From IMG/VR virus record IMGVR_UViG_3300045136_000892: DNA of 64,000 nt; one strand, given 5' to 3'. The stretch's first letter is position 1. Every line of letters begins with the position of its first letter. The notes beneath the pieces were generated by a model that did no database searches, was not told the origin of the DNA, and was given only the letters and a program-made list of their open reading frames with translations. The position numbers were made by a program, and so were the translations under genes. The stretch comes from a virus. Of this stretch, positions 10,295-55,542 are shown piece after piece.

Positions 10295-11854
10295 ATGGCC
10301 TTCGGCACGGATGAACTGAAGCAGAGCCTCATCCGGCGCCTGGAGATCATCGACAAGCTCGACCGGGACCCCGAACTGCAGGCCATCGCCATGGCGCGGG
10401 CGGCCAAGGACCCGGTGTGGTGGTTCAACACCTTCGCCTGGACCTACGACCCGCGCGGCGCGGCCAAGGGCCTGCCCGCTTACCTGCCCTTCGACCTGTT
10501 CCCCCGCCAGGAGGAGCTGATCCGCTGGCTGGATGACCGCGTGGCCGCCTCCCAGGAGGGCTTGGTCGAGAAATCCCGCGACGTGGGCTGGACCTGGGTG
10601 GCGGCGGGCTACGCCCTGCACAAGTGGCTCTTCGCACCCGGCTTCAAGACGACGTTCGGCAGCCGCAAGGAGGTCTACGTCGACCGCATCGGCGACCCGG
10701 ACAGCATCTTCGGCAAGATCCGCCTGATGCTGGACCGCCTGCCGCACTGGATGCTGCCGGCGGGCCTGAACCGGGCCGAGCACGACAACTTTATGCGCCT
10801 GATCAACCCGGCCAACGGGAACGCCATCACCGGCGAGGCGGGCGACAACATGGGCCGCGGCGGGCGCTCGACGCTCTACGTCGTGGACGAGGGCGCGTTC
10901 ATCGAGCACGCCGAGAAGGTCGACGCCGCCATCGTGGCGAACGCAAACACAAGGATCTGGGCGTCTTCGGTCAACGGCACCGGCAACGTCTTCTTCCGCA
11001 AGCGGCACTCCGGCCACATCCCGGTCTTCCGTTTCCACTGGTCCGACGACCCCCGCAAGGACGCGGCCTGGGCCGAGGCCAAGCAGCGGGAGCTCTCCTC
11101 GACTCCGGCCACCTGGGCGGCCGAGTACGACATCGACTACGCGGCCTCGGTCGAGGGCATCTGCATCCCGGCAAAGTGGGTGGAATCCTCCTTGAAGCTG
11201 GCCAGGGCGCTCAAACGGCAGCCGCAAGGGCCGGGTACGGCGGGGCTCGACGTCGGCGCCGGTAGGGCCAAGTCCGTGCTGGTCCCCAAGTTCGGGCCGG
11301 TCGTGGTCATGCCGACTTTCTGGCAGACCGTGGACAACATCCACGTCACCCACGACGCCCTGGACGTGGCCCGGAGCCTCGGCGTCCGGCAGGTCAACTA
11401 TGACTCCGCCGGCGTCGGCAACACGGTCACCAGCACGCTGGTGCATGCGAACACCGAAGGCGTCACCGTCAGCCCGATCAACGTGGGCGTGCCGCCGACC
11501 GAGACCCTGATGCCCGACGGCCGCATGGCCTCAGAGTGGTTCGGCAACCTCAAGGCCCAGCTCTGGTGGGCGATGCGCGACGCCTTCAAGGCCACGCACG
11601 AGCACGTCCGCTACCTGGAGGGCTACGAGGACGGCGTGCCGCACTCGGAGGACGAATGGATCCTGCTGCCCGACTGTAACGAGCTGATCGGCCAGGTCTC
11701 GCTCCCGAAGTGGTTCAGGAACGAGGGGGGCAAGATCGTCATCGAGACCAAGAAACAACTCGCGATGCGGGGCGTGCCCTCGCCGGACTACGCCGAGGCC
11801 CTCGTGCTCAACTATGCCCAGGGAGGTTCCGGCTTCCACTTCGCGTCGATTTAG
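10295..11854 (+). CDS. terminase large subunit
   Basis: EKSRDVGWTW ATPase motif, GRGGR, VVDEGA, GLDVGAG, SPDYAEAL nuclease. Confidence 0.92.
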   Translation: MAFGTDELKQSLIRRLEIIDKLDRDPELQAIAMARAAKDPVWWFNTFAWTYDPRGAAKGLPAYLPFDLFPRQEELIRWLDDRVAASQEGLVEKSRDVGWTWVAAGYALHKWLFAPGFKTTFGSRKEVYVDRIGDPDSIFGKIRLMLDRLPHWMLPAGLNRAEHDNFMRLINPANGNAITGEAGDNMGRGGRSTLYVVDEGAFIEHAEKVDAAIVANANTRIWASSVNGTGNVFFRKRHSGHIPVFRFHWSDDPRKDAAWAEAKQRELSSTPATWAAEYDIDYAASVEGICIPAKWVESSLKLARALKRQPQGPGTAGLDVGAGRAKSVLVPKFGPVVVMPTFWQTVDNIHVTHDALDVARSLGVRQVNYDSAGVGNTVTSTLVHANTEGVTVSPINVGVPPTETLMPDGRMASEWFGNLKAQLWWAMRDAFKATHEHVRYLEGYEDGVPHSEDEWILLPDCNELIGQVSLPKWFRNEGGKIVIETKKQLAMRGVPSPDYAEALVLNYAQGGSGFHFASI

Positions 11855-19713: not shown

Positions 19714-21480
19714 ATGTCCGGTCTGATCGTCCAGCAAGGCCAGGTGAACACGAACGCCATCGTCGTCCCCAATCTCATCATCCAGATCGTCCCACCCTCG
19801 TTCACGCTGCTCAACGGAGTTCCCACCAACGTTGTGGGCATCGTCGGCACCGCAACCTGGGGCCCGGTGAACAGCCCGGTGATCGCCTCGGGCATCTCCG
19901 ACGCCACCCGCCTGTTTGGCCCGATGCAGCCGCGCAAGCACGACCTGAACACCGCCGTCTTCGCCGCGGCCCTCCAGGGCGGCGCGGCCAACCTGCGCCT
20001 GGTGCGCGTCACCGACGGCACGGACGCCGCCGCCTCGGCGGCCGTCCGCCAGGTGGGCGTCTCCGCCGCCTCCGTCGCTGCGGGCGGCTCCGGCTACGCG
20101 GTGGGCAACACCATCACCCTGACCGGCGGCGCCGTGCTGACCGTGTCCTCGGTCTCCTCGGGCGCGGTAACCGGCGTCACCGTCACCACCCCGGGCTCGT
20201 ACTCCGCGATCCCGGCCAACCCCGTGGTCCAGACCGCGACCAGCGGCAGCGGCAGCGGCGCGACGTTCAACCTGACGTTCGCCACCGGCCTGACACTCAC
20301 CGCGATGTACACCGGCAGCAACGGCAACAACCTGACCTACGCGATCGGCGCCGGCTCGAACAGCACGCCGGGCGCGCCGACCTACAAGCTGACCTTCCAG
20401 CTCCCCGGCCAGCTCCCCGAGGTGTTCGACAACATCGGCGGAACCGGCAACGCCCTGTACCAGAACATGGCCAGCGCCATCAACCTCGGCCAGAGCGGGC
20501 TGCGCGGCCCGTCCGAGCTGGTGGTCGCCACCGCCGGGGCCGCCACCCTCGCCCCGATCACGGGAACGGGCACGCTCTCGGGCGGCACGGACGGCACGGG
20601 CACCATCAACTCGGCCACCCTCGTCGGCCAGGACACCGTCCCCCGCAAGGGCATGTACGCCCTGCGGGACACCGGGGTGAGCGTCGCCATGCTGGCGGAC
20701 GCCGACGACTCGGCCCAGTGGACCTACCAGAACGCCTTCGGCCTGTCCGAGGGGGCATACATGATCGGCGTCAGCCCGGCGGGCGACACCATCACCAATT
20801 TCGCCACCACGGTCGCCAGCGCGGGCATCGACAGCTACGCGATGAAGATCCTCTTCGGCGACTGGTGCTACATCTCCGACCCTGTGAACAACCAGGTCCG
20901 CCTGATCTCGCCCCAGGGCTTCATCGCCGGGCTGCTCGGCAACCTCACGCCCTCGAACTCGACCCTGAACAAGCCGATCCAGGGCATCGTGGGCACCCAG
21001 AAGACCCGCCTGAACCAGCAGTACAGCCAGGCCGAACTGCAGGCCATCGCGCTCGCCCGCGGCGACCTGATCACCAACCCGGCCCCCGGCGGCAGCTACT
21101 TCGCTGCCCGGTTCGGCCGCAACACTTCCAGCAATGCGGTGATCCACGGCGACAACTACACCCGGATGACCAACTTCATCGCCGCGACGCTGAACGCGGG
21201 CATGGGCCTCTACGTCGGCCGCAAGATCAGCCCGACGCTGATGAACCAGGCCTACGCCACGCTGGACGCTTTCCTGTCGAACCTGGAGCAGCAGGGCGAG
21301 AGCCAGGACCACCAGATCGTCCTGGACGCCTCCAACAACCCGTTCAGCCGCACAGCGCTGGGCTACCTGCAGGCCGACGTGAAGGTGCGGTACTTCAGCA
21401 TCACGGAGGTCCTGTTAGTGAATCTGGAAGGCGGCCAGAGCGTAAGAATTGATCGCGTGAGCACCAATCCTGCTGTATGA
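19714..21480 (+). CDS. contractile tail sheath protein
   Basis: GIVGTATWGPVN, VRVTDGTD, LSGGTDG, NYTRMTNFI, GYLQADVKV. Confidence 0.92.
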   Translation: MSGLIVQQGQVNTNAIVVPNLIIQIVPPSFTLLNGVPTNVVGIVGTATWGPVNSPVIASGISDATRLFGPMQPRKHDLNTAVFAAALQGGAANLRLVRVTDGTDAAASAAVRQVGVSAASVAAGGSGYAVGNTITLTGGAVLTVSSVSSGAVTGVTVTTPGSYSAIPANPVVQTATSGSGSGATFNLTFATGLTLTAMYTGSNGNNLTYAIGAGSNSTPGAPTYKLTFQLPGQLPEVFDNIGGTGNALYQNMASAINLGQSGLRGPSELVVATAGAATLAPITGTGTLSGGTDGTGTINSATLVGQDTVPRKGMYALRDTGVSVAMLADADDSAQWTYQNAFGLSEGAYMIGVSPAGDTITNFATTVASAGIDSYAMKILFGDWCYISDPVNNQVRLISPQGFIAGLLGNLTPSNSTLNKPIQGIVGTQKTRLNQQYSQAELQAIALARGDLITNPAPGGSYFAARFGRNTSSNAVIHGDNYTRMTNFIAATLNAGMGLYVGRKISPTLMNQAYATLDAFLSNLEQQGESQDHQIVLDASNNPFSRTALGYLQADVKVRYFSITEVLLVNLEGGQSVRIDRVSTNPAV

Positions 21481-23773: not shown

Positions 23774-25513
23774 ATGTTCGAGGCTTACAAGGTCGGAGTC
23801 ACGCTGGCGCTGCACAGCAACGTAAGCGCCGCGCTGGGCCTGATCGCCCGCGACTTCGTCAAGACCGACCTCGAGGCCAAGAAGCTCCAGAAGACCCTCA
23901 AGGAGATCAAGCTGCTCGGGCTGACCGGGGCCATCGTCGGCGGGGCCGGATTCATGGGGCTGGGCCTGATCAAGTCCGCCGTCAAGCCCGCCAGCGAGTA
24001 CGTCCACCAGCTCGAACTGGCCAAGGCCGCCGGGATGAAGCAGCAGGAGATCGCCGAAGCCACCGCCGCCGCCTGGAAGACCGCCGGCGAGGTGATGACC
24101 AGCAGCCCGACCGAGAATCTCAAGGCCATCCGCGAGCTGCGCATGGTCTTCGGCGACACGATGGAGGCCATCCACTTCCTGCCCCAGATGCAGCGCATCC
24201 AGGCCGTGCTCGACGCCACCCTGCACGGGACCGGAGGAATCGGCGCCAGGGACGTGGCGTTCGCCGCCGCCAAGGCCCTCGAACTCCGCGGCGCGTCGAT
24301 GAGCCCGCAGACCTTCCAGGAGCAGGCCGACTACATGACCAGGGCGGTCATCGCCTCCGGCGGCAAGGTCACGCCCCAGATGCTGCTCCAGATGCAGAAA
24401 TACGCGGGCATCGGCGGCACGAGCTACAGCAACGACTTCCTCTACGGCATCGCCCCCACGCTGGTGCAGGAACTGGGCGGGTCCCAGACCGGCAACTCGC
24501 TGACCAGCATGTACCGAGCCATCGTGGGCGGCCGGATCGACAAGAAGGCCCTGGCCGTCTGGCAGCAGATGGGCCTGCTCCAGAGCGTCAAGGGGATCAC
24601 CGGCGAGAGCGCGATGATCCAGGCGAAGAACGCGGGGCTCTTCCAGGATAACCCGTTCCTTTACATGCAGTTCCTGCAGGGCGAGTTGGCCAAGCGGGGC
24701 ATCACCGACCCGAAGGCCCAGCAGGAGGTCATCGAGCGGCTCTTCTCGAACCGCGTGGCGGGCCGCATGGCCAATATCCTCATGATGCAGGGGCCCCGGC
24801 TCCAGAAGGATTTCGAGCTGATCAAGGGGGCCGGAGACTCCAGCGCCTATTACGACCTGATCAAGCGCGACCCGCCCACCGTCTACAGGGCGCTCGATGC
24901 CCAATGGGACGCCCTGAAAACCGCCCTCGGCATGACCGTGGTCCCGGTCATCATCCCCATGCTGCGGGGCCTCACGAACGCCCTAAACTCGCTCGCCACA
25001 TTCGCGGCCGACCATCCAACGCTGACCCAGGGGCTGATGCTGACGTTCGGCGGCCTGTCGGCTCTCGCCACGCTGGGCGGCACCCTGATGATCGCCGGGG
25101 CGGGCCTCAAGGTCATCGGCCTGGTCCTGACCACGCTCACCGGCCTGCCGCTGGCCGTCGCCGCCACCGGCCTTGGCACGCTGACCGCCGCCGTGGCGGA
25201 AGTGGTCGGGCTGGGCATGGCCGTCGCCAATGCGGACACGATCGGCGGCTGGAAGTACAACCCCATCAACATGATCGAGCAGGGCGGCGAGGCCGTCGGC
25301 GGCTGGCTCAAGGGAAAGATGGCCCCCAGCTACGGCCCGCCGATGCGGGAGAACTCGCGCGAGATCCACACCACCGTCAACATCGACGGCCGGAAGGTCG
25401 CGCACGCCGTGAACAAGCACAACGAGCGGGCCGCGTCCCGCCCCTCCGGCTCCGGCGGAGCGCCCGATTACCGTGCGATCCCACGTCACTCGGGATCGGG
25501 CGGGGGCCGGTAG
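23774..25513 (+). CDS. tape measure protein
   Basis: Ala/Gly-rich helical protein with hydrophobic C-terminal segments; position. Confidence 0.8.
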   Translation: MFEAYKVGVTLALHSNVSAALGLIARDFVKTDLEAKKLQKTLKEIKLLGLTGAIVGGAGFMGLGLIKSAVKPASEYVHQLELAKAAGMKQQEIAEATAAAWKTAGEVMTSSPTENLKAIRELRMVFGDTMEAIHFLPQMQRIQAVLDATLHGTGGIGARDVAFAAAKALELRGASMSPQTFQEQADYMTRAVIASGGKVTPQMLLQMQKYAGIGGTSYSNDFLYGIAPTLVQELGGSQTGNSLTSMYRAIVGGRIDKKALAVWQQMGLLQSVKGITGESAMIQAKNAGLFQDNPFLYMQFLQGELAKRGITDPKAQQEVIERLFSNRVAGRMANILMMQGPRLQKDFELIKGAGDSSAYYDLIKRDPPTVYRALDAQWDALKTALGMTVVPVIIPMLRGLTNALNSLATFAADHPTLTQGLMLTFGGLSALATLGGTLMIAGAGLKVIGLVLTTLTGLPLAVAATGLGTLTAAVAEVVGLGMAVANADTIGGWKYNPINMIEQGGEAVGGWLKGKMAPSYGPPMRENSREIHTTVNIDGRKVAHAVNKHNERAASRPSGSGGAPDYRAIPRHSGSGGGR

Positions 25514-33127: not shown

Positions 33128-34942
33128 GTGGGAGCGAAGCGCCAGGACATCACCATCGAACAGGGAGCTGACTTCGCCGAGGTGTTCGACCTGCCCGCCT
33201 CGCTCGACCTGAACGGCTTGCAGGCTGCGATGCAGATCAGGGCCGACTACGGATACCCCGTCCCCCTGCTCACACTGACTCTGCAGGGGGGTGGCTTGCT
33301 CCTGGACACGGCCACGAGGCGCATCATGCCAGTGATCAGCGCGGCGACGGCCTCGGCCTTCCTGCCCGGAAGCTACGTGTACGACATCAAGACCCGCGAG
33401 ACGAGCGGGCGCCTGACCCGCACCCACCAAGGGGTGGTGACGGTCAGCCCCGAGGTGACGACCTTCGACTTCTCGGCCGCGCCGTCCCCCTCGCCCGCTC
33501 CGGCTCCCGCTCCCGCCCCGAGCCCGTCTCCGGCGCCGGCCCCCGCGCCTGCGCCCGCTCCGGCGCCGGCACCTCCTCCCGATCCCGTCGAATACCTGAG
33601 CGACGGAAACGGCAACACGATCACCGACCATCTGAACAACCCGATCGACATCAGGCCGGTGCCAGTCCCCATCATCCTGAGCGGGAACAGCCACTCGGTG
33701 ACGGAAGGGCAGAACCTGATCTTCGGCCTCACGGCGGACGTCCCCGTGACCTGGAGCCTGGAAGGCCCGGACGCGGGCTTGTTCTCCCTTGCCGGGAACA
33801 TCGTCACGCTGCCCTACAAGGACTACGAAGCCCCGGCTGACGCCAACGCCGACAACGTGTACGAGCTGACGGTGCGGGCGACGAACGCCGAAGGGAATGC
33901 GGCGACGAAGGCGGTGCGGGTGACGGTGATGAACATCGTGGATGATACGTCTCCGCTACCGTTCACCTTCATGGACGTGCTGACCACACAGCGCTCGACG
34001 CCGTTCACGAGCAACACGGTCACGGTCAGCGGCGTGAACGTGCCGACCCCGCTCAGCATCTCCGGCGGGGAGTATTCGATCAACGGCGGAGCCTACTCCT
34101 CGGCCAGCGTGAACGTCTTCGACGGCGACACGATAACCCTGCGGGTGACATCCTCGGCCGACGGCACGCCGGCAGTCGCCACGCTCACCGTGGGCACCTA
34201 TTCGGCCAACTTCGGGGTGTACGATGACCCGCCGCCGCCGGTCACCTCCGGGCTCCAGCTCTGGCTGACCAGCACGGACCTTGCCGATTTCACCGTCACG
34301 AACGGCGCCATCAGCCAGTGGAATGACCGCAGCGGGAATGGCAACCACGTGACGCAGTCGACGGAGGCGAACCAGCCTACCATCGGGACGCGCACACTCA
34401 ATAACCGGAACGCGCCCGACTTCCTGGGAACGACGGCTCAGTACCTGCTACTACCCTCCGCGCTCAACTCCATTCCAGGCGTAAGCAACACAATCTTAAT
34501 AGTCGCGCTGTCCGATACCGGAACAGGCTCTAGCGGAGCGCAGGCGCTGCTGAGGGCAAACACGACCAGCTTCCAGATGCAGCTCAACCCGGGCAGCACC
34601 CGGATCGAGAACCGGAACCACACCAGCACCAACGTCTTCACGACGATCACCAAGAACAACACGGCCAACATCTTCGCCCAGTGTCGCAACGGCTCGGCGC
34701 TGACGGCCTGCTTCAACACCACGCAGACGGTGAATGCCTCCGGGGCGAACAACGTCACCGTGACGGACATCGGCCTCGGCGCGAACCCCAGCGGCTCCGC
34801 CCCGTTCAACGGGATGATCGTGGAGGTGCTGGTCTACAACCGGGCGCTCACGCTGGTCGAGGCCAACCAGGTGGCCGACTACCTGAAAGAAAAGTGGAAC
34901 GTGACCAACTTCTCGGGCTCCTACACGTCCGGCTTCGCCTAA
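33128..34942 (+). CDS. multi-domain tail/adhesion protein (adaptor, PA linker, cadherin-like, LamG-like)
   Basis: TIEQGADF N-terminus; (PA)n linker ~33480-33585; DYEAPADANADNVYE; SQWNDRSGNGNH...YL.EKW. Confidence 0.7.
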   Translation: MGAKRQDITIEQGADFAEVFDLPASLDLNGLQAAMQIRADYGYPVPLLTLTLQGGGLLLDTATRRIMPVISAATASAFLPGSYVYDIKTRETSGRLTRTHQGVVTVSPEVTTFDFSAAPSPSPAPAPAPAPSPSPAPAPAPAPAPAPAPPPDPVEYLSDGNGNTITDHLNNPIDIRPVPVPIILSGNSHSVTEGQNLIFGLTADVPVTWSLEGPDAGLFSLAGNIVTLPYKDYEAPADANADNVYELTVRATNAEGNAATKAVRVTVMNIVDDTSPLPFTFMDVLTTQRSTPFTSNTVTVSGVNVPTPLSISGGEYSINGGAYSSASVNVFDGDTITLRVTSSADGTPAVATLTVGTYSANFGVYDDPPPPVTSGLQLWLTSTDLADFTVTNGAISQWNDRSGNGNHVTQSTEANQPTIGTRTLNNRNAPDFLGTTAQYLLLPSALNSIPGVSNTILIVALSDTGTGSSGAQALLRANTTSFQMQLNPGSTRIENRNHTSTNVFTTITKNNTANIFAQCRNGSALTACFNTTQTVNASGANNVTVTDIGLGANPSGSAPFNGMIVEVLVYNRALTLVEANQVADYLKEKWNVTNFSGSYTSGFA

Positions 34943-47393: not shown

Positions 47394-48631
47394 CCCTTCA
47401 CGCATAGCACCTGCTTCAGCTCATAAGCGATTTCCACCAGATCCTGCTGCGCCGCCATGACCGCATCGATCGGCTTGTAGGCCGCCGGGCTCTCGTCCAG
47501 GACCCCTTCGTCCTTTCGGCACTCGACACCAGCAGTCGCCTTTGCGTGGTCTTCGAGGCTGACGCGTTTGCTGGCCTCGCCCCGGCTCATCACCCGTCCG
47601 GCGCCGTGCGAGCAGCTGCAGAATGATTCCTGGTTGCCCTTGCCCCGCACGATGAACGACCGGGCACCCATCGAGCCGGGGATGATCCCCAGATCGCCTT
47701 GGCGGGCACGGACGGCCCCCTTGCGGGTGAGCCAGACGTTCTTGCCATAGTGCTGCTCGCGGGCCACGTAGTTGTGGTGGCAGTTCACCGCAACCTCGTC
47801 CGGGCGGCCGACCCGGCCGGGGAAGTGCCGCTCCAGCACCCTGAGCACCGCCCGCATCATCACCTCGCGGTTCGCCCGGGCGAAGTCCTGCGCCCAGGTC
47901 AGGGCCTCGACGTAGTCGTCGAAAAGGTCTGACCCTTCCGGAATGTAGGCCAGGTCGGCGTCCGGCAGGTTGACGAACCAGCGGCGCATCTCCGCCTTGG
48001 CCCGCTCGATGAAGTAAATGCCGAACTTGTTCCCGATGCCCCGACTGCCGGAGTGGAGCATCACCCAGATAGCCCCGTCGGTGTCGAGGCACAGCTCGAT
48101 GAAGTGGTTTCCGGTGCCGAGCGTGCCGAGGTGGTGCGGAGCGCGTGTTGCGGACCGGGCCAGGTCGGGGTGCTTGGCGACGATGGCTTCGAGGCGTTCC
48201 TGAAGCGACGGCCCGAAGGCATCACTCTTGAACGCCCACGCGGATTCGTCCGGCAGATCGCCCCAAGCCCCACGATCGCTCGCCCCGCCGTTGTCGGTGC
48301 GACCGTGCGGCACCGCCGCCTCGATGTCGGAGCGGATCTCGAACAGGTTGTCGGGCAGGTCCTCAGCCCGAAGTCCGGTCCGAACGGCCATCATGCCGCA
48401 ACCGATATCCACGCCCACAGCCGCCGGAATGATCGCCCCGACTGTGGGGATGACCGAGCCGACGGTGGCCCCCATGCCCCAGTGGACGTCAGGCATGACC
48501 GCGACATGGTGATGGATGAAGGGCATCCGGGCGACGTTGCGGAGCTGGTCGACGGCTTTCTGGTCGAGAGGTACGCCTTCGGTCCAGCCGTAGATCGGAA
48601 CGGCTTCCTTGCCGAGGAACTGCCTACTCAT
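47390..48631 (-). CDS. rtcB: RNA ligase RtcB
   Basis: MPDVH.G.G, VDIGCG, GTLG.GNHFIE, HSGSRG, HHNY, SHGAGR, DESP.AYK. Confidence 0.97.
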   Translation of the reverse strand: MSRQFLGKEAVPIYGWTEGVPLDQKAVDQLRNVARMPFIHHHVAVMPDVHWGMGATVGSVIPTVGAIIPAAVGVDIGCGMMAVRTGLRAEDLPDNLFEIRSDIEAAVPHGRTDNGGASDRGAWGDLPDESAWAFKSDAFGPSLQERLEAIVAKHPDLARSATRAPHHLGTLGTGNHFIELCLDTDGAIWVMLHSGSRGIGNKFGIYFIERAKAEMRRWFVNLPDADLAYIPEGSDLFDDYVEALTWAQDFARANREVMMRAVLRVLERHFPGRVGRPDEVAVNCHHNYVAREQHYGKNVWLTRKGAVRARQGDLGIIPGSMGARSFIVRGKGNQESFCSCSHGAGRVMSRGEASKRVSLEDHAKATAGVECRKDEGVLDESPAAYKPIDAVMAAQQDLVEIAYELKQVLCVKG

Positions 48632-49922
48632 TGGCAGATTCAAACTTCACGATGTAGTCGAGGACCTTGTTCGACCAGCCGTCGATGTGGACCCACTGGC
48701 CGTAGCCGACGCCATTCTTGTTGCTCGCGACGTTGATCAGGTAGCCCTTCATCTGCGGTACCGGGTCGTGGCTCTGCTCGTCGGTGATGACGATCAGCCG
48801 ATCCCGAGCCGGCAGCGAGCGGACCGCCTTACCCAGTTCCGTCCCGCCGTGCGGCTGAGCACCAGTGATCGCATCCCGAAGGGCAAACCCACGCCGTCCC
48901 GGCACCTCGACCAGGCTGTTGGAGAAGGTGAAGACCCGCAGGTCGGAAAACATCTCCCGGCCGATCATCGCCAGCGAGCAGGCCACATCCATCCGGTTCA
49001 GCTCGGACTTGGAGGACAGCGCGGAGTCCATCGATCCCGACACGTCCACCAGGATGATCGTCTTGCCGCCCAGCTTCTCGCGGCCCGCGAAGCACTCGAA
49101 GAACTTGGCCTCCAGCTCAGGCTCGAACTGGGGGTTGTGCCGCGCCGAGGCGATGAAGTTGATCGGTAGGAGTCGACCGGCCTTCACGTCGCGCAGGCCT
49201 TCGCGGATCGCCTGGTCCTCCACGCCCGCCTTCGTCATATTGCGGACGTTGCGGAGCATGGCGAGTCCGCCAAGCTTGCCCTCGGAGAGTAGACGAGACC
49301 ACGAGGCCTTCTTGTCACCACCCTTCGACAGCTCGACCTCCCAGGTATCCGGAGTAGCCAGCTCGCCTTTGACGAGCTTGCGCCAAAGCTCGGCCTGTTC
49401 GAGATTGGCCGGCTTGGGGCGGGTGATCCGCAGGGCGTCGCGCAGTTTGACCGCCTTCTGACCTCCGTTGTACTTGGCTAGCTGGTACTCGTCGAACTTG
49501 CGGAAGGAGTCGCCCAGGCCGCGCTTGACCTGCTTGGCCAGCGGTTCGTCCTTGTTAGCCTTCCAATAGATTGACAGGAACTCGGTGATATCGTCCGGGC
49601 GGAGGATGACGCGGGGAAAGAGCCCCTTGGCCTGCGCACGGCCTTCCTTGGTCCGCATCAGCTCACGGGCGAGCAGGAGCGGGACGTGGCGGAGGCGCAT
49701 GTCCTCCTTCGCCTGGACGGCGACGCGGGCGACATCCTCGGCAGGCACGAGCTTCACCAGCTCGGCGATCCGCTGGCCGATGGTCTGGCCGTCCTCGTAG
49801 AACTCCGACTCCCAGAGCAGGCAGGACATGACGGAGCGTTCGAGTTGAGCGAGCGCGTTGATACGGGCAGCCGGAGCGCCTTCGTGGGTGAACTCCTTGC
49901 GGATTCGGTTCAGGGTAGCCAT
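48624..49922 (-). CDS. rsr: Ro60/TROVE-domain RNA-binding protein with vWA domain
   Basis: TPDTWE, AMLRNVRN, LVDVSGSM (MIDAS), GGT, VITDEQ. Confidence 0.9.
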   Translation of the reverse strand: MATLNRIRKEFTHEGAPAARINALAQLERSVMSCLLWESEFYEDGQTIGQRIAELVKLVPAEDVARVAVQAKEDMRLRHVPLLLARELMRTKEGRAQAKGLFPRVILRPDDITEFLSIYWKANKDEPLAKQVKRGLGDSFRKFDEYQLAKYNGGQKAVKLRDALRITRPKPANLEQAELWRKLVKGELATPDTWEVELSKGGDKKASWSRLLSEGKLGGLAMLRNVRNMTKAGVEDQAIREGLRDVKAGRLLPINFIASARHNPQFEPELEAKFFECFAGREKLGGKTIILVDVSGSMDSALSSKSELNRMDVACSLAMIGREMFSDLRVFTFSNSLVEVPGRRGFALRDAITGAQPHGGTELGKAVRSLPARDRLIVITDEQSHDPVPQMKGYLINVASNKNGVGYGQWVHIDGWSNKVLDYIVKFESANE

Positions 49923-49943: not shown

Positions 49944-50070
49944 GGGCGGGGAAGATTCGGAGAGGGACGAAACTGAGCTACTGAACCTTGCGGCCCAGGC
50001 GGGGATCGAACCCGCGACCTCCGGCGAACCGGCGCTCTATCCAAAGTATCCCTGTCCTGCACCACCGCCC
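49944..50070 (-). ncRNA. Y RNA-like ncRNA, tRNA domain opened in the D loop
   Basis: Terminal stem GGGCGG/CCGCCC; shared TGGTGCAG..AGGG.TACTT and TCTTCC motifs; T arm, capped acceptor stem, split D arm. Confidence 0.85.
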
Positions 50071-50082
50071 TGTTGCGGAAAC

Positions 50083-50212
50083 CGTGCGGGGAAGAAACGA
50101 CAAAGGTACAAAGCGTCCTAACCATTAGACGACGGCCCCGAAGGACCGGCGGGATTCGAACCCGCATCTCTCTCGTGGAAAGAGAAGTAACCCTTGCCTG
50201 CACCACCGCACG
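50083..50212 (-). ncRNA. Y RNA-like (YrlA-type) ncRNA with TCC anticodon loop
   Basis: CGTGCGG/CCGCACG stem; shared motifs; GCGGG-TTCGAAT-CCCGC; UUCG-capped acceptor stem; D arm GTC..GAC. Confidence 0.85.
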
Positions 50213-50223
50213 ATGGTTCAAGA

Positions 50224-50357
50224 GGAGGGGGAAGAGACGATAAAGGCACGTACGTGCTCTACCAGCTGAGCTACCGGCAGGTCGATCTGCCGGACGGGAC
50301 TCGAACCCGCGACCACGCGATTACAAGTCGAAGTAACCCTTATCTGCACCACCCTCC
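50224..50357 (-). ncRNA. Y RNA-like (YrlA-type) ncRNA with TGT anticodon loop
   Basis: Terminal GGAGGG/CCCTCC stem; shared motifs; T arm; CCGGCAG/CTGCCGG acceptor; TAGCTCAGCTGGTAGAGC D arm. Confidence 0.88.
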
Positions 50358-50366
50358 AAAACTTAA

Positions 50367-50428
50367 GAGCCGGGAAGATCGTCGAAGGTTCGCTTTCCAA
50401 TAAGTAGCCCTCGACTGCACCACGGCCC
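50367..50428 (-). ncRNA. minimal Y RNA-like ncRNA (Ro-binding module only)
   Basis: GGGCCG/CGGCTC and GTCGAGGG/CCTTCGAC stems with the same TGGTGCAG, TACTT, TCTTCC motifs; no tRNA domain. Confidence 0.75.
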
Positions 50429-53457: not shown

Positions 53458-53468
53458 ATCCTTAGGCG

Positions 53469-53558
53469 TGCCCGTGATCGGACTCGAACCAACATACCCG
53501 CGTGAGCTAAGGTGCCAGGATGACAGCCTGGTGCGTCTACCAATTCCGCCACACGGGC
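53469..53558 (-). ncRNA. tRNA-like element: Leu-type scaffold, GTC anticodon, no CCA
   Basis: GCCCGTG/CACGGGC, TGGCGGAATTGGTAGACGC, CCAGG-CTGTCAT-CCTGG, long variable arm, TTCGAGT. Confidence 0.75.
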
Positions 53559-54585: not shown

Positions 54586-55542
54586 TCAAGCCACCATCCA
54601 CCTCTGGCTATACCCCTTCCACTGCCGCGACACAGGCGCAGCCAGGGCGGCGCCCACCAGCATCAGATACTGCTCGCCATTGCTCACCCGGCGGTTATCC
54701 TCGCGCCATGCCATCTCCGCGGCGTACAGGCCGAGATACGGCCCTGCAATGTGGTGATGCGTGCCGACCTCGGCCCGGCGCAGGCGGCTGAAATAGCTCT
54801 CTGCTTGATTGGTGCAGGCTCCGTTCTCGCTATAGGCCCATTTGTGGTTCACCCGCTTCGTCAGATATTTCGCGTGCAGCGCATCCCAAGCGGGCGCTTC
54901 ATCGGCGTGGATCACCGAGCCAGCGGCCACATGCTTCTGCACCAGGGGCACGGCCTCATCCTCCGAGCGGAACACGAAGGGTAGCGTCCGGCCCTTGCGC
55001 TCGCGCATGACGACGACGACCTGGCGCTTGCCCGTTTGGTTTGCCGCCAGGCGGCGGTCCTTGCGGTCTTCCTTGCGGTTCTCCGGCTTCACATGCCCGC
55101 CGAAATAGCCGCCGTCCACCTCGACCTCCCCCGATAGCTGACACTCGGCACGCATCGCCTCGCGGAGTTTGTGGGAGAGCACGAAGGCAGTCCGGTACTG
55201 GACGCCCAGGTCGCGGGATAGCTGCAGGGCGCTAATGCCCTTGGCCGCGTTCGTGAACAGGGCGATGGCCACCAGGATCTCGCGGATCGCCAGCTTGCGG
55301 GAGGCGAAGATCGTCCCCGAGGTCACGCTGAACTGGTGGCTGCATGCCTTGCACTTCCAGAGCGCCCGCGTCGTGTAGGTGTAGAGGGCGGCGCAGCGGC
55401 AGCGGGGGCAGTAGGGCTTGCCGCCCGTATCGGCCCAGCGGATGGCCTGGAACGCCTCGGCGGCCTGCTCGTCCGTCATGGCCATGATCGCCCTCAGAGA
55501 GAGGGACCGGGCGGCGGAGGAGAGGAGGAAGTGCTGGGTCAT
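54586..55542 (-). mobile_element. IS1595-family transposase
   Basis: CPRC/CKAC Zn ribbon, FSVTSGTIF, VEVDGGY, IHADE, TNQAESYFSRLRR; element ends not identified. Confidence 0.92.

What the first reader, a model, noticed from the sequence alone, without database searches (positions are those of the whole stretch)
49944..50070. Y RNA with a different permutation point: Ro handle grafted into the D loop
Seen, minus strand: handle - GGATA GAGC G CCGG-TTCG-CCGG AGGTC GCGGG-TTCGATC-CCCGC CTGGGCC-GCAA-GGTTCAG TA GCTC AG TT - handle. The D stem (GCTC/GAGC) is formed by the two ends of the payload, so the tRNA is opened in the D loop. The anticodon arm is continuous but capped by UUCG, and the acceptor stem by GCAA. 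Inference: a second, independently derived tRNA-mimic topology on the same handle, presenting a different tRNA face to Ro60 partners.
Basis: partly seen in the sequence, partly recalled or inferred. Interest (0 to 1): 0.75.

Follow-up and report, generated by a model that had tools for sequence, protein, structure and literature searches.

The report
Ro-partner RNA with D-loop-split tRNA
A prophage in a planctomycete encodes, just upstream of its Ro60-type RNA-binding protein, a small RNA whose working end is a complete tRNA shape cut open in its D loop and joined there to the Ro-binding stem; the layout recurs beside Ro genes in other phyla but is absent from Rfam and the Y RNA papers I could read.

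Summary
Window 49944-50070 (minus strand) reads exactly as described. It is the last of four tandem Y-RNA-like units directly upstream of a TROVE/Ro60 gene, followed by RtcB and an HD hydrolase, inside a myovirus-like prophage.

The payload is a four-arm tRNA cloverleaf. Both the acceptor and the anticodon arm are closed by tetraloops, and the D stem is formed by the two ends of the payload.

A covariance model of this topology found 13 distinct full examples, plus one more found by eye:
- All sit beside Ro genes, as the last tRNA-like unit before the gene.
- They come from Planctomycetota, Acidobacteriota and one viral contig.
- They score 70-139 bits, against 66 or less for every other Y RNA on the same handle.

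The handle, anticodon hairpin, T arm and acceptor hairpin all covary. The split D stem never varies in the full examples. Support for its pairing comes from conserved tRNA context and two reduced variants with compensatory closing stems.

Rfam YrlA scores this element at 20 bits (cut-off 69) and misses its counterparts.

"Independently derived" and "different face" remain untested.

The scan had already noted this stretch in overlapping windows of the same genome. It had also noted Ro-linked permuted tRNA mimics on much other DNA, but none of the notes shown describes the D-loop break elsewhere.

The parts
50048..50070 (-). Handle, 5' strand. It holds the terminal stem (RNA 1-6 and 8-9, with U7 bulged), the conserved GGUGGYGNAG-type motif and the inner stem (RNA 14-16 and 18-23).
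   Evidence: Pairs with 49944-49968. Terminal helix: 4 of 8 pairs change on both sides. Inner helix: 7 of 9 pairs do, across 13 sequences.
50038..50047 (-). Single-stranded linker carrying the conserved UACUU motif, then GG and AUA. These match the 3' half of a tRNA D loop (G18, G19, A21).
   Evidence: GG, then 1-2 nt, then A and the D-stem strand is present in all 13 aligned examples.
50034..50037 (-). D-stem 3' strand (GAGC, tRNA positions 22-25), followed by G26 at 50033.
   Evidence: Invariant in 13 of 13. The proposed partner is 49975-49978 (helix 3).
50021..50032 (-). Anticodon-arm stub: a 4-bp stem capped by a UUCG tetraloop.
   Evidence: 3 of 4 pairs change on both sides and 100% of cells are paired. 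Caps elsewhere are GNRA, UUCG or 5-7 nt loops.
50016..50020 (-). Variable-loop equivalent (5 nt, ending in C48, which could pair with G15).
   Evidence: AGGU(C/A) or AGGA in 12 of the 13 aligned examples; L216 has AAGGUC. The Levitt pair is inferred for the window only.
49999..50015 (-). T arm: a 5-bp stem and a 7-nt UUCGAUC loop.
   Evidence: 2 of 5 pairs change on both sides. The C-G to U-A change against L001 is compensatory.
49981..49998 (-). Acceptor stem, 7 bp, closed by a GCAA tetraloop. There is no free CCA end.
   Evidence: 6 of 7 pairs change on both sides. The sequences are unrelated between lineages.
49969..49980 (-). UA (positions 8-9), the D-stem 5' strand GCUC (49975-49978), AG (positions 14-15), then a linker back to the handle.
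   Evidence: GUAGCU is invariant in 13 of 13. A14 and R15 are kept in only about half of the examples.
49944..49968 (-). Handle, 3' strand, with the conserved UUCCCC end motif.
48624..49922 (-). Ro60-type gene (432 aa). It starts 21 nt after the RNA unit.
   Evidence: Pfam TROVE E 4.7e-18. PHROG 850 E 7e-49. Best solved relative is Thermus phage phiLo Ro60, 9KOP/9L5Y, E 1.4e-23.
50084..50428 (-). The three upstream units of the same array: 50367-50428 (short, no tRNA part), 50224-50357 and 50084-50211 (T arm, acceptor, closed D arm).
   Evidence: No promoter-like or terminator-like site lies between the units.

Best explanation
This is a Y RNA, a small non-coding RNA partner of the adjacent phage-type Ro60 protein. 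It is probably cut out of one transcript that carries four such units and the rsr gene.

Its two ends form the conserved Ro-binding handle. Its other module is a complete tRNA-shaped fold that is circularly permuted at the D loop:
- The chain enters at G18-G19.
- It runs through the D-stem 3' strand, a tetraloop-capped anticodon stub, the variable loop, the T arm and a tetraloop-capped acceptor stem.
- It leaves after the D-stem 5' strand and A14-G15.

The handle therefore replaces D-loop positions 16-17, which are exposed in real tRNAs. The G18G19/T-loop elbow and the core contacts can still form.

The result would be a closed L-shaped tRNA mimic with no anticodon and no CCA end, tethered to Ro by its elbow side through 5-6 nt linkers. 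In YrlA the tether is the end of the anticodon stem. By analogy with other Y RNAs, it would then tether or gate Ro60 towards a tRNA-recognising partner.

Shown: sequence anatomy, genomic linkage to Ro, conservation, and covariation of five of six helices. Inferred: D-stem pairing, the L-shape, Ro binding, processing and the partner.
For: Linkage:
- Same strand as, and 21 nt upstream of, a TROVE gene, and fourth in a tandem array.
- In five whole genomes the model hits only next to Ro.

Recurrence:
- There are 13 distinct full examples at 70-139 bits; all other Y RNAs on the handle score 66 or less. A fourteenth was found by eye (L142).
- All 14 are the last tRNA-like unit before Ro.

Structure:
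- 96.6% of cells are paired and 22 of 37 pairs change on both sides.
- 0 of 500 shuffles reach the observed values, and structures with the 3' partners slid 1-3 columns pair only 38-52% of cells.
- The window and its closest relative (Tundrisphaera locus L001) differ at 6 of 127 positions, all structure-neutral. These are one compensatory pair, one G-U to A-U change, a change at the third position of the GNRA cap, the R57 purine and one mismatch site. The 21-nt spacer to the start codon is heavily diverged.

tRNA context:
- U8, G10-C13, A14, G15, G18, G19, A21, G26, C48, G53, U54-U55-C56, R57, A58 and C61 are all in place in the window.
- GUAGCU and GG..AGAGC are invariant in 13 of 13.

D stem: reduced variants keep a complementary closing stem with different letters.
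- L048 has GAGU/ACUC.
- L033 has GCG/CGC.
- L004 has a 5-bp version.

The forced YrlA-style alternative pairing does worse. One of its pairs is broken in 5 of 13 sequences, and C-to-U changes are compensated by the handle partner, not by the alternative partner.
Against: - The split D stem shows no covariation in any full example (helix 3), so the alignment neither supports nor refutes its pairing.
- RNAalifold does not predict it.
- Its predicted pairing probability ranges from 0 to 0.99 and is 0.27 in the window. The proposed structure lies 2 kcal/mol above the MFE there.
- The single-sequence fold is not better than shuffles (z = -1.5).
- A14/R15 and the fourth D-stem pair are not kept in several acidobacterial examples.
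- There are no expression, end-mapping, Ro-binding, modification or structure-probing data.
- The Ro-binding motif here (GGUGCAG) departs from the published GNCGAA form.
- Two reviews of bacterial Y RNAs and the 2014 supplement could not be read, so the novelty claim is limited.
Confidence: 0.75

Rival explanations
1. It is a decayed YrlA-order Y RNA. Only the T arm and acceptor hairpin matter. GCUC is the remnant of a D arm that lost its 3' half, the upstream GAGC does not pair with it, and the small hairpin is just a spacer.
For: - Rfam YrlA aligns the unit this way at 20.3 bits.
- RNAalifold and the MFE omit the D stem.
- Minimal units with only GG, a T arm and an acceptor hairpin exist in other loci.
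- The alternative 3-bp pairing is possible in 88% of cells.
Against: - Both D-stem halves and their tRNA-specific neighbours (U8-A9 on one side; G18, G19, A21 and R26 on the other) are invariant across three lineages, while the linkers vary.
- Reduced variants change both halves together (L048, L033).
- The alternative helix breaks in 5 of 13 sequences at one pair, and its variable column covaries with the handle instead.
Confidence: 0.13
2. It is not a free RNA but a structured 5' leader of the rsr mRNA, controlling Ro synthesis in cis, for example by Ro binding its own leader.
For: - Only 21 nt separate it from the start codon, and a purine-rich Shine-Dalgarno-like stretch lies in that spacer.
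- No promoter-like or terminator-like site lies between the units.
- It is always the Ro-proximal unit.
Against: - It has the same closed handle as the three upstream units and as units that lie kilobases from Ro in other loci.
- In two loci a further short unit sits between it and Ro (L011, L098).
- In Salmonella, Y RNAs lie within the rsr-yrlBA-rtcBA operon alongside the protein genes (PMC4201824, PMC7790460), so lying in one operon with rsr does not argue against a free RNA.
- The two roles are not mutually exclusive.
Confidence: 0.08
3. It is debris of two adjacent tRNA genes: the 3' part of one and the 5' part of the next.
For: Real tandem tRNAs give a similar linear motif order and were picked up as false positives by my regular expression (L043, L050 and L075).
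Against: - The acceptor strands are complementary to each other and joined by a tetraloop.
- The anticodon loop is a tetraloop.
- The whole is embedded in a covarying Ro handle and conserved beside Ro in several phyla.
Confidence: 0.02

Closest known systems
YrlA (Y RNA-like A; Rfam RF02553; Chen et al. 2014, PMC4201824; Wang et al. 2018, bioRxiv 10.1101/312249)
   Same: - Encoded next to Ro60/Rsr on the same strand.
- A terminal Ro-binding stem.
- A tRNA-like module with near-identical T-arm and D-stem sequences, a loop-closed acceptor stem, and G18G19 and T-loop residues for an elbow.
   Different: - YrlA has the order T arm, acceptor, closed D arm, and joins the Ro stem through the anticodon stem.
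- Here the D arm is split, the anticodon arm is a closed stub, and the Ro stem enters through the D loop.
- The Rfam model scores the window element at 20.3 bits against a cut-off of 69. It misses all twelve counterparts at E <= 0.01, while hitting their YrlA-order neighbours at 34-51 bits.
Deinococcus radiodurans Yrn1 (Rfam RF01053)
   Same: As described in PMC4201824, Yrn1 has D-loop-like features, then an anticodon-like arm, then the T arm. This is the same 5'-to-3' order as the first half of this payload.
   Different: - Yrn1 has no acceptor hairpin and no full D arm.
- RF01053 finds nothing in this prophage record.
- I could not fetch the Yrn1 sequence for a direct comparison.
Circularly permuted tRNA genes of Cyanidioschyzon merolae, type I (junction 20/21 in the D loop; Soma 2014, PMC3978253)
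   Same: A tRNA whose gene order is broken in the D loop, with the acceptor ends joined in the precursor.
   Different: - Those are eukaryotic pre-tRNAs. They are processed through a circular intermediate into working tRNAs with anticodon loops.
- This RNA has tetraloops in place of the anticodon loop and the CCA end.
- It is fused to a Ro handle, and its break lies on the other side of G18-G19 (about 16/17).
Thermus phage phiLo phiRo60 with Yrl1/Yrl2 (PMC12135203; PDB 9KOP, 9L5Y)
   Same: - It is the closest solved relative of the Ro protein here.
- It is phage-encoded.
- Its Y-like RNAs lie upstream of the gene.
   Different: Yrl1 and Yrl2 are described as stem-bulge-stem RNAs found through a CGAA motif. 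The passages I read do not report a tRNA-like module for them.

Membership tests
Bacterial Y RNA (Ro60/Rsr-associated ncRNA) | Encoded close to, and on the same strand as, a Ro60/TROVE gene | tested here: met
   The unit ends 21 nt before the TROVE gene at 48624-49922. The same holds in 13 other loci. Whole-genome hits lie only beside Ro.
Bacterial Y RNA (Ro60/Rsr-associated ncRNA) | The 5' and 3' ends pair into a stem that carries the conserved Ro-binding 5'-strand motif | tested here: inconclusive
   The terminal and inner stems covary. The motif in the window is GGUGCAG. Some relatives have the published GNCGAA form, for example GGCGAAG in L132. Homology of the motif is inferred.
Bacterial Y RNA (Ro60/Rsr-associated ncRNA) | Physically bound by Ro60 | not testable with these tools
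   This needs immunoprecipitation or a gel-shift assay.
YrlA (Rfam RF02553) | Scores at or above the family's gathering threshold (69 bits) | tested here: not met
   The score is 20.3 bits at E 0.17, and the D arm is marked as non-pairing. No counterpart is hit at E <= 0.01 in 12 loci.
YrlA (Rfam RF02553) | Order is T arm, acceptor stem-loop, closed D stem-loop, enclosed by an anticodon-like stem that continues into the Ro stem | tested here: not met
   The D-stem strands are 55 nt apart and enclose the other three arms. The anticodon arm is a closed hairpin.
YrlA (Rfam RF02553) | tRNA-like T arm, D-stem sequence and tertiary-contact nucleotides | tested here: met
   The T arm, GUAGCUC and GG..AGAGC match the YrlA consensus printed, and are conserved in 13 of 13.
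tRNA / permuted tRNA gene | Four-arm cloverleaf with the universally conserved core and elbow nucleotides | tested here: met
   Established by reading the un-permuted order. The payload alone folds to the cloverleaf as its MFE. Neither ARAGORN nor the Rfam tRNA model calls it.
tRNA / permuted tRNA gene | A 7-nt anticodon loop and a free acceptor end that can carry CCA | tested here: not met
   The anticodon loop is a UUCG tetraloop and the acceptor is closed by GCAA. Only L166 has a 7-nt loop at this place.
Deinococcus Y RNA (Rfam RF01053) | Match to the family model | tested here: not met
   There is no match in the 142,954-base record, while the control genome of D. radiodurans is detected.

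The most novel reading that the evidence does not exclude
The Ro handle is a general scaffold onto which a whole tRNA has been grafted at different break points: the anticodon stem, the D loop and the variable region.

The D-loop graft would be an old, conserved class carried by phages and bacteria, holding the tRNA elbow against the Ro ring. It contains both half-layouts previously treated as separate inventions: YrlA (T arm, acceptor, D arm) and Yrn1 (D loop, anticodon arm, T arm). Those two could then be reductions of one complete permuted tRNA.

The class may serve phages as a decoy or adaptor for a host factor that reads the tRNA elbow or acceptor/T minihelix.
Probability: 0.25. Interest if true: 0.75.

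Novelty: new variant of a known kind. Interest (0 to 1): 0.6.

Why it matters
Bacterial Y RNAs are known as tRNA mimics, but only in one well-defined connectivity (YrlA) and one loosely tRNA-like form (Yrn1). What the tRNA module does is still an open question.

A second, conserved way of joining the same tRNA fold to the same Ro handle changes which parts of the mimic are free and which lie next to Ro:
- Free here: both helical ends.
- Next to Ro here: the elbow.

This gives natural 'orientation mutants' for testing what the module binds. It also shows that current models (Rfam YrlA) miss a recurring class, and in fact all Y RNAs of these phyla and phages at the curated threshold. The payload on a fixed handle appears to be remodelled quickly between related prophages.

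Tried and rejected
- **Sampled CM searches.** A search of 151 genomes drawn from the phylum of the acidobacterial genome G003, and of 151 from its family, gave almost nothing new: 1 and 3 genomes with hits. Ro loci are rare and only 23 candidates per genome are scored.
- **My regular-expression classifiers of payload topology.** They were unreliable, missing the window itself and giving many false calls. I give no census from them and rely on CM scores plus inspection.
- **MAFFT alone.** It mis-registered the acceptor stems. I therefore seeded the model with two sequences and re-aligned to the model.
- **RNAalifold and single-sequence thermodynamics.** They do not settle the D stem.
- **The YrlA-style alternative pairing.** I tested the 3' side of the small hairpin against the 3' handle and found it inferior.
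- **A functional tie to RtcB.** Considered and rejected as general. Only 12 of 187 Ro loci with enough downstream sequence have RtcB. Among the 16 loci with the D-loop-open or a reduced unit, RtcB matched only in L001 and, partially at the locus end, in L120.
- **RF01053 (Deinococcus Y RNA).** It does not match.
- **Literature not held.** The Y RNA reviews (PMC10870794, PMC6047535), the 2014 supplement and Burroughs & Aravind 2016 were unavailable.
- **Ro protein tree.** A FastTree of 228 proteins places the class in three regions. The count of 11 changes is inflated by reduced variants and by loci with missing upstream DNA, so I draw no conclusion on single or multiple origin.

Full report
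**What is there**

On the minus strand, 49944-50070 is a 127-nt unit whose ends pair into a long interrupted stem. In order it holds:
- GG and three bases;
- GAGC, then one G;
- a 4-bp hairpin with a UUCG cap;
- five bases;
- a textbook T arm;
- a 7-bp hairpin with a GCAA cap;
- UA, GCUC and AG.

Read in tRNA numbering after un-permuting, every nucleotide needed for the tRNA core and elbow is in place. These are U8, G10-C13, A14, G15, G18, G19, A21, G26, C48, G53, U54-U55-C56, R57, A58 and C61.

The payload cut out on its own folds into the cloverleaf as its minimum-energy structure. Neither that fold nor the whole-unit fold is better than shuffled sequence (z = -0.5 and -1.5). The single sequence therefore proves little.

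**Context**

The unit is the last of four tandem units sharing one handle: 50367-50428, 50224-50357, 50084-50211 and 49944-50070. No promoter-like or terminator-like site lies between them.

Twenty-one bases downstream starts a 432-aa TROVE/Ro60 gene. An RtcB ligase and a SpoT-like HD hydrolase follow it.

The window belongs to a 142,954-base IMG/VR provirus record. It carries a terminase, tail sheath, tape measure and tail-fibre-like genes. The Ro protein matches PHROG 850, and its best solved relative is the Ro60 of Thermus phage phiLo. The nearest genome locus is in Tundrisphaera lichenicola (Isosphaeraceae), with 93% Ro identity.

**Is the topology real and recurrent?**

I collected 240 further Ro loci: 80 from species genomes, 80 from metagenomes and 80 from viral contigs.

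Model building went in two steps:
- R1 was built from the window and its Tundrisphaera counterpart, with the proposed structure.
- R2 was rebuilt from the six best matches.

R2 separates two populations cleanly:
- Thirteen distinct elements score 70-139 bits, 88 or more except one viral example.
- Every other Y-RNA-like unit on the same handle scores 66 bits or less.

Seven of the thirteen were not used to build the model: L053, L098, L120, L132, L145, L166 and L216. A fourteenth, L142, was recognised by eye at 60 bits.

The examples carry three handle variants:
- a planctomycete type (window, L001, L011, L098);
- an acidobacterial type (L025, L034, L049, L053, L120, L132, L145, L166, and also L142);
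- one from a 67-kb viral contig (L216).

In all fourteen the element is the last tRNA-like unit before the Ro gene. In L011 and L098 a short payload-less unit intervenes. In five whole genomes the model hits only beside Ro.

**Covariation** (13-sequence alignment A8)

- 96.6% of cells form standard pairs, and 22 of 37 pairs change on both sides.
- No shuffle out of 500 reaches the observed values.
- Sliding the 3' partners by 1-3 columns drops pairing to 38-52%.
- Pairs changing on both sides, by helix:
  - terminal handle helix, 4 of 8;
  - inner handle helix, 7 of 9;
  - anticodon stub, 3 of 4;
  - T stem, 2 of 5;
  - acceptor hairpin, 6 of 7.
- Caps vary among GNRA, UUCG and 5-7-nt loops. 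This fits a purely structural role.

The window and L001 differ at only six positions, all structure-neutral. They are a compensatory C-G to U-A change in the T stem, a G-U to A-U change in the acceptor, the third position of the GNRA cap, the R57 purine, and a mismatch site in the handle. By contrast, the short spacer to the start codon is heavily diverged.

**The weak point: the split D stem**

GAGC and GCU(C) never vary in the full examples, so the alignment says nothing for or against their pairing (helix 3). RNAalifold does not predict the stem. Its predicted pairing probability ranges from 0 to 0.99 and is 0.27 in the window. The proposed structure lies 2 kcal/mol above the MFE there.

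I still favour pairing, for four reasons:
1. Both halves are invariant together with their tRNA-specific neighbours, while the adjoining linkers vary freely.
2. Chen et al. 2014 (PMC4201824) already noted that D-stem sequences are nearly invariant in YrlA, so invariance is expected.
3. Three reduced relatives keep a complementary closing stem with other letters. L048 has GAGU/ACUC, L033 has GCG/CGC, and L004 has a 5-bp version.
4. The competing YrlA-style pairing imposed by the Rfam alignment does worse. One of its four pairs is broken in 5 of 13 sequences. Its variable column covaries with the handle partner (G-C 8, A-U 4) rather than with the alternative partner.

**Comparison with what is known**

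- *YrlA.* Chen et al. 2014 and Wang et al. 2018 (bioRxiv 10.1101/312249) describe it as T arm, acceptor stem-loop, then closed D arm, joined to the Ro stem through the anticodon stem.
- *Yrn1.* They describe it as a looser form with D-loop features, an anticodon-like arm and a T arm, in the opposite order.
- *D-loop break.* Neither text, nor the other papers I could search, mentions a D-loop break in a Y RNA.
- *Rfam.*
  - YrlA scores the window element at 20.3 bits against a cut-off of 69, with the D arm flagged as non-pairing.
  - In twelve other loci it hits only the YrlA-order neighbours, at 34-51 bits and so also below cut-off. It never hits the D-loop-open unit at E <= 0.01.
  - No other Rfam family covers them.
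- *Precedent for the fold.* D-loop-permuted tRNA genes exist in a red alga, with the junction at 20/21 (PMC3978253), so the fold tolerates a break there.
- *Limits on the novelty claim.* Two reviews and the 2014 supplement were not available. I cannot inspect the Rfam seed alignment.

**How it most likely works**

The handle binds Ro60. This is inferred from the shared, covarying stem and a motif related to the published GNCGAA.

The payload folds into a closed L-shaped tRNA mimic. Its elbow side is tied to the handle by linkers of five to six bases that replace D-loop positions 16-17. Both helical ends are then free and sealed, and the elbow sits close to Ro. In YrlA the elbow is at the far end of the anticodon stem.

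The module cannot decode or be charged. By analogy with other Y RNAs it would tether or gate Ro towards a tRNA-recognising partner.

RtcB is not that general partner. It follows Ro in only 12 of 187 loci. Among the loci carrying this class it matched only in L001 and, partially at the locus end, in L120.

The prophage setting, and the 87 viral contigs with this Ro type, make a role in phage-host RNA conflict plausible but untested.

**Origin**

'Independently derived' is not supported. The payload shares the conserved YrlA T-arm and D-stem sequences.

Units with the same outer stem in related planctomycete loci carry different payloads:
- anticodon hairpin plus T arm only (L003, L005);
- a version without an acceptor (L004);
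- T arm, acceptor and closed D arm (L009);
- nothing (L012).

In a FastTree of 228 Ro proteins the class lies in three regions. One is an acidobacterial clade in which most listed members carry the class or a reduced form at the Ro-proximal position. This points to long vertical retention there and to remodelling elsewhere, but I did not resolve single against multiple origin.

**Earlier notes of the scan**

- The same stretch had been noted in overlapping windows.
- One note reads the two upstream units as tRNAs opened at 28/29 with intact anticodon loops. My reading of unit 50224-50357 agrees with it.
- Ro-linked permuted tRNA mimics have been noted on many other genomes.
- None of the notes shown describes the D-loop break on other DNA.

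Noticed in passing
window 50367-50428 (-): A 62-nt unit with the same handle but no tRNA-like payload heads the array, resembling YrlB. Similar payload-less units sit between the D-loop-open unit and Ro in L011 and L098.
   Followed up: partly
window 50224-50357 and 50084-50211 (-): The two middle units have the order T arm, acceptor, closed D arm. Each has a hairpin with a 7-nt anticodon-like loop 5' of the T arm. They score only 43 and 27 bits on Rfam YrlA (cut-off 69), so standard annotation misses them too.
   Followed up: partly
L002:2745-2870, L005:2745-2870, L007:2781-2904: These show a third connectivity on the same handle: T arm, GCAA-capped acceptor, closed D arm, then a GAAA-capped anticodon-like hairpin. 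That is a tRNA opened in the variable region.
   Followed up: partly
L003:2882-2978, L005:2884-2979, L004:2852-2972, L009:2703-2822, L012:2912-2979: These are positional orthologues of the finding, with the same outer stem, and they carry quite different payloads:
- L003 and L005: anticodon hairpin plus T arm only, the Yrn1-like order.
- L004: a version without an acceptor.
- L009: T arm, acceptor and closed D arm.
- L012: no payload.

The cargo on a fixed handle turns over quickly between related loci.
   Followed up: partly
L027:2756-2851, L028:2753-2848, L051:2836-2932, L160:564-660, L161:1297-1391: These are minimal units of about 96 nt, made of the handle, a GG, a T arm and a tetraloop-capped acceptor hairpin, with no D stem. 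They recur next to Ro in proteobacterial-type loci.
   Followed up: no
window 10295-11854, 19714-21480, 23774-25513, 33128-34942 (+): Terminase large subunit, tail sheath, tape measure and tail-fibre-like genes place the Ro/Y RNA/RtcB module inside a myovirus-like prophage. The Ro protein matches PHROG 850, and 87 IMG/VR contigs encode relatives.
   Followed up: partly
all Ro loci (L001-L247): RtcB follows this Ro type in only 12 of 187 loci that have at least 1.3 kb of downstream sequence, and the HD gene follows in 2. The window's Ro-RtcB-HD arrangement is the exception, not the rule.
   Followed up: yes
L216:1-203: A permuted tmRNA (Rfam RF04321, 62.8 bits, cut off at the contig end) lies about 0.3-1.1 kb upstream of the Y RNA units (508-1418) in this viral contig. 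It may mark an integration site.
   Followed up: no
L043, L050, L027, L028 (whole loci): Ten to fifteen T-arm motifs per 7 kb flank the Ro gene. Some are genuine tandem tRNA genes, so Ro sits inside tRNA gene arrays in these Hyphomicrobiaceae and proteobacterial records.
   Followed up: no
window 53468-53558 (-) and 54586-55542 (-): A 91-nt tRNA with a GUC anticodon and a long extra arm (ARAGORN; Rfam tRNA 53.7 bits) lies near an IS1595-family transposase, a few kb upstream of the Y RNA array.
   Followed up: no
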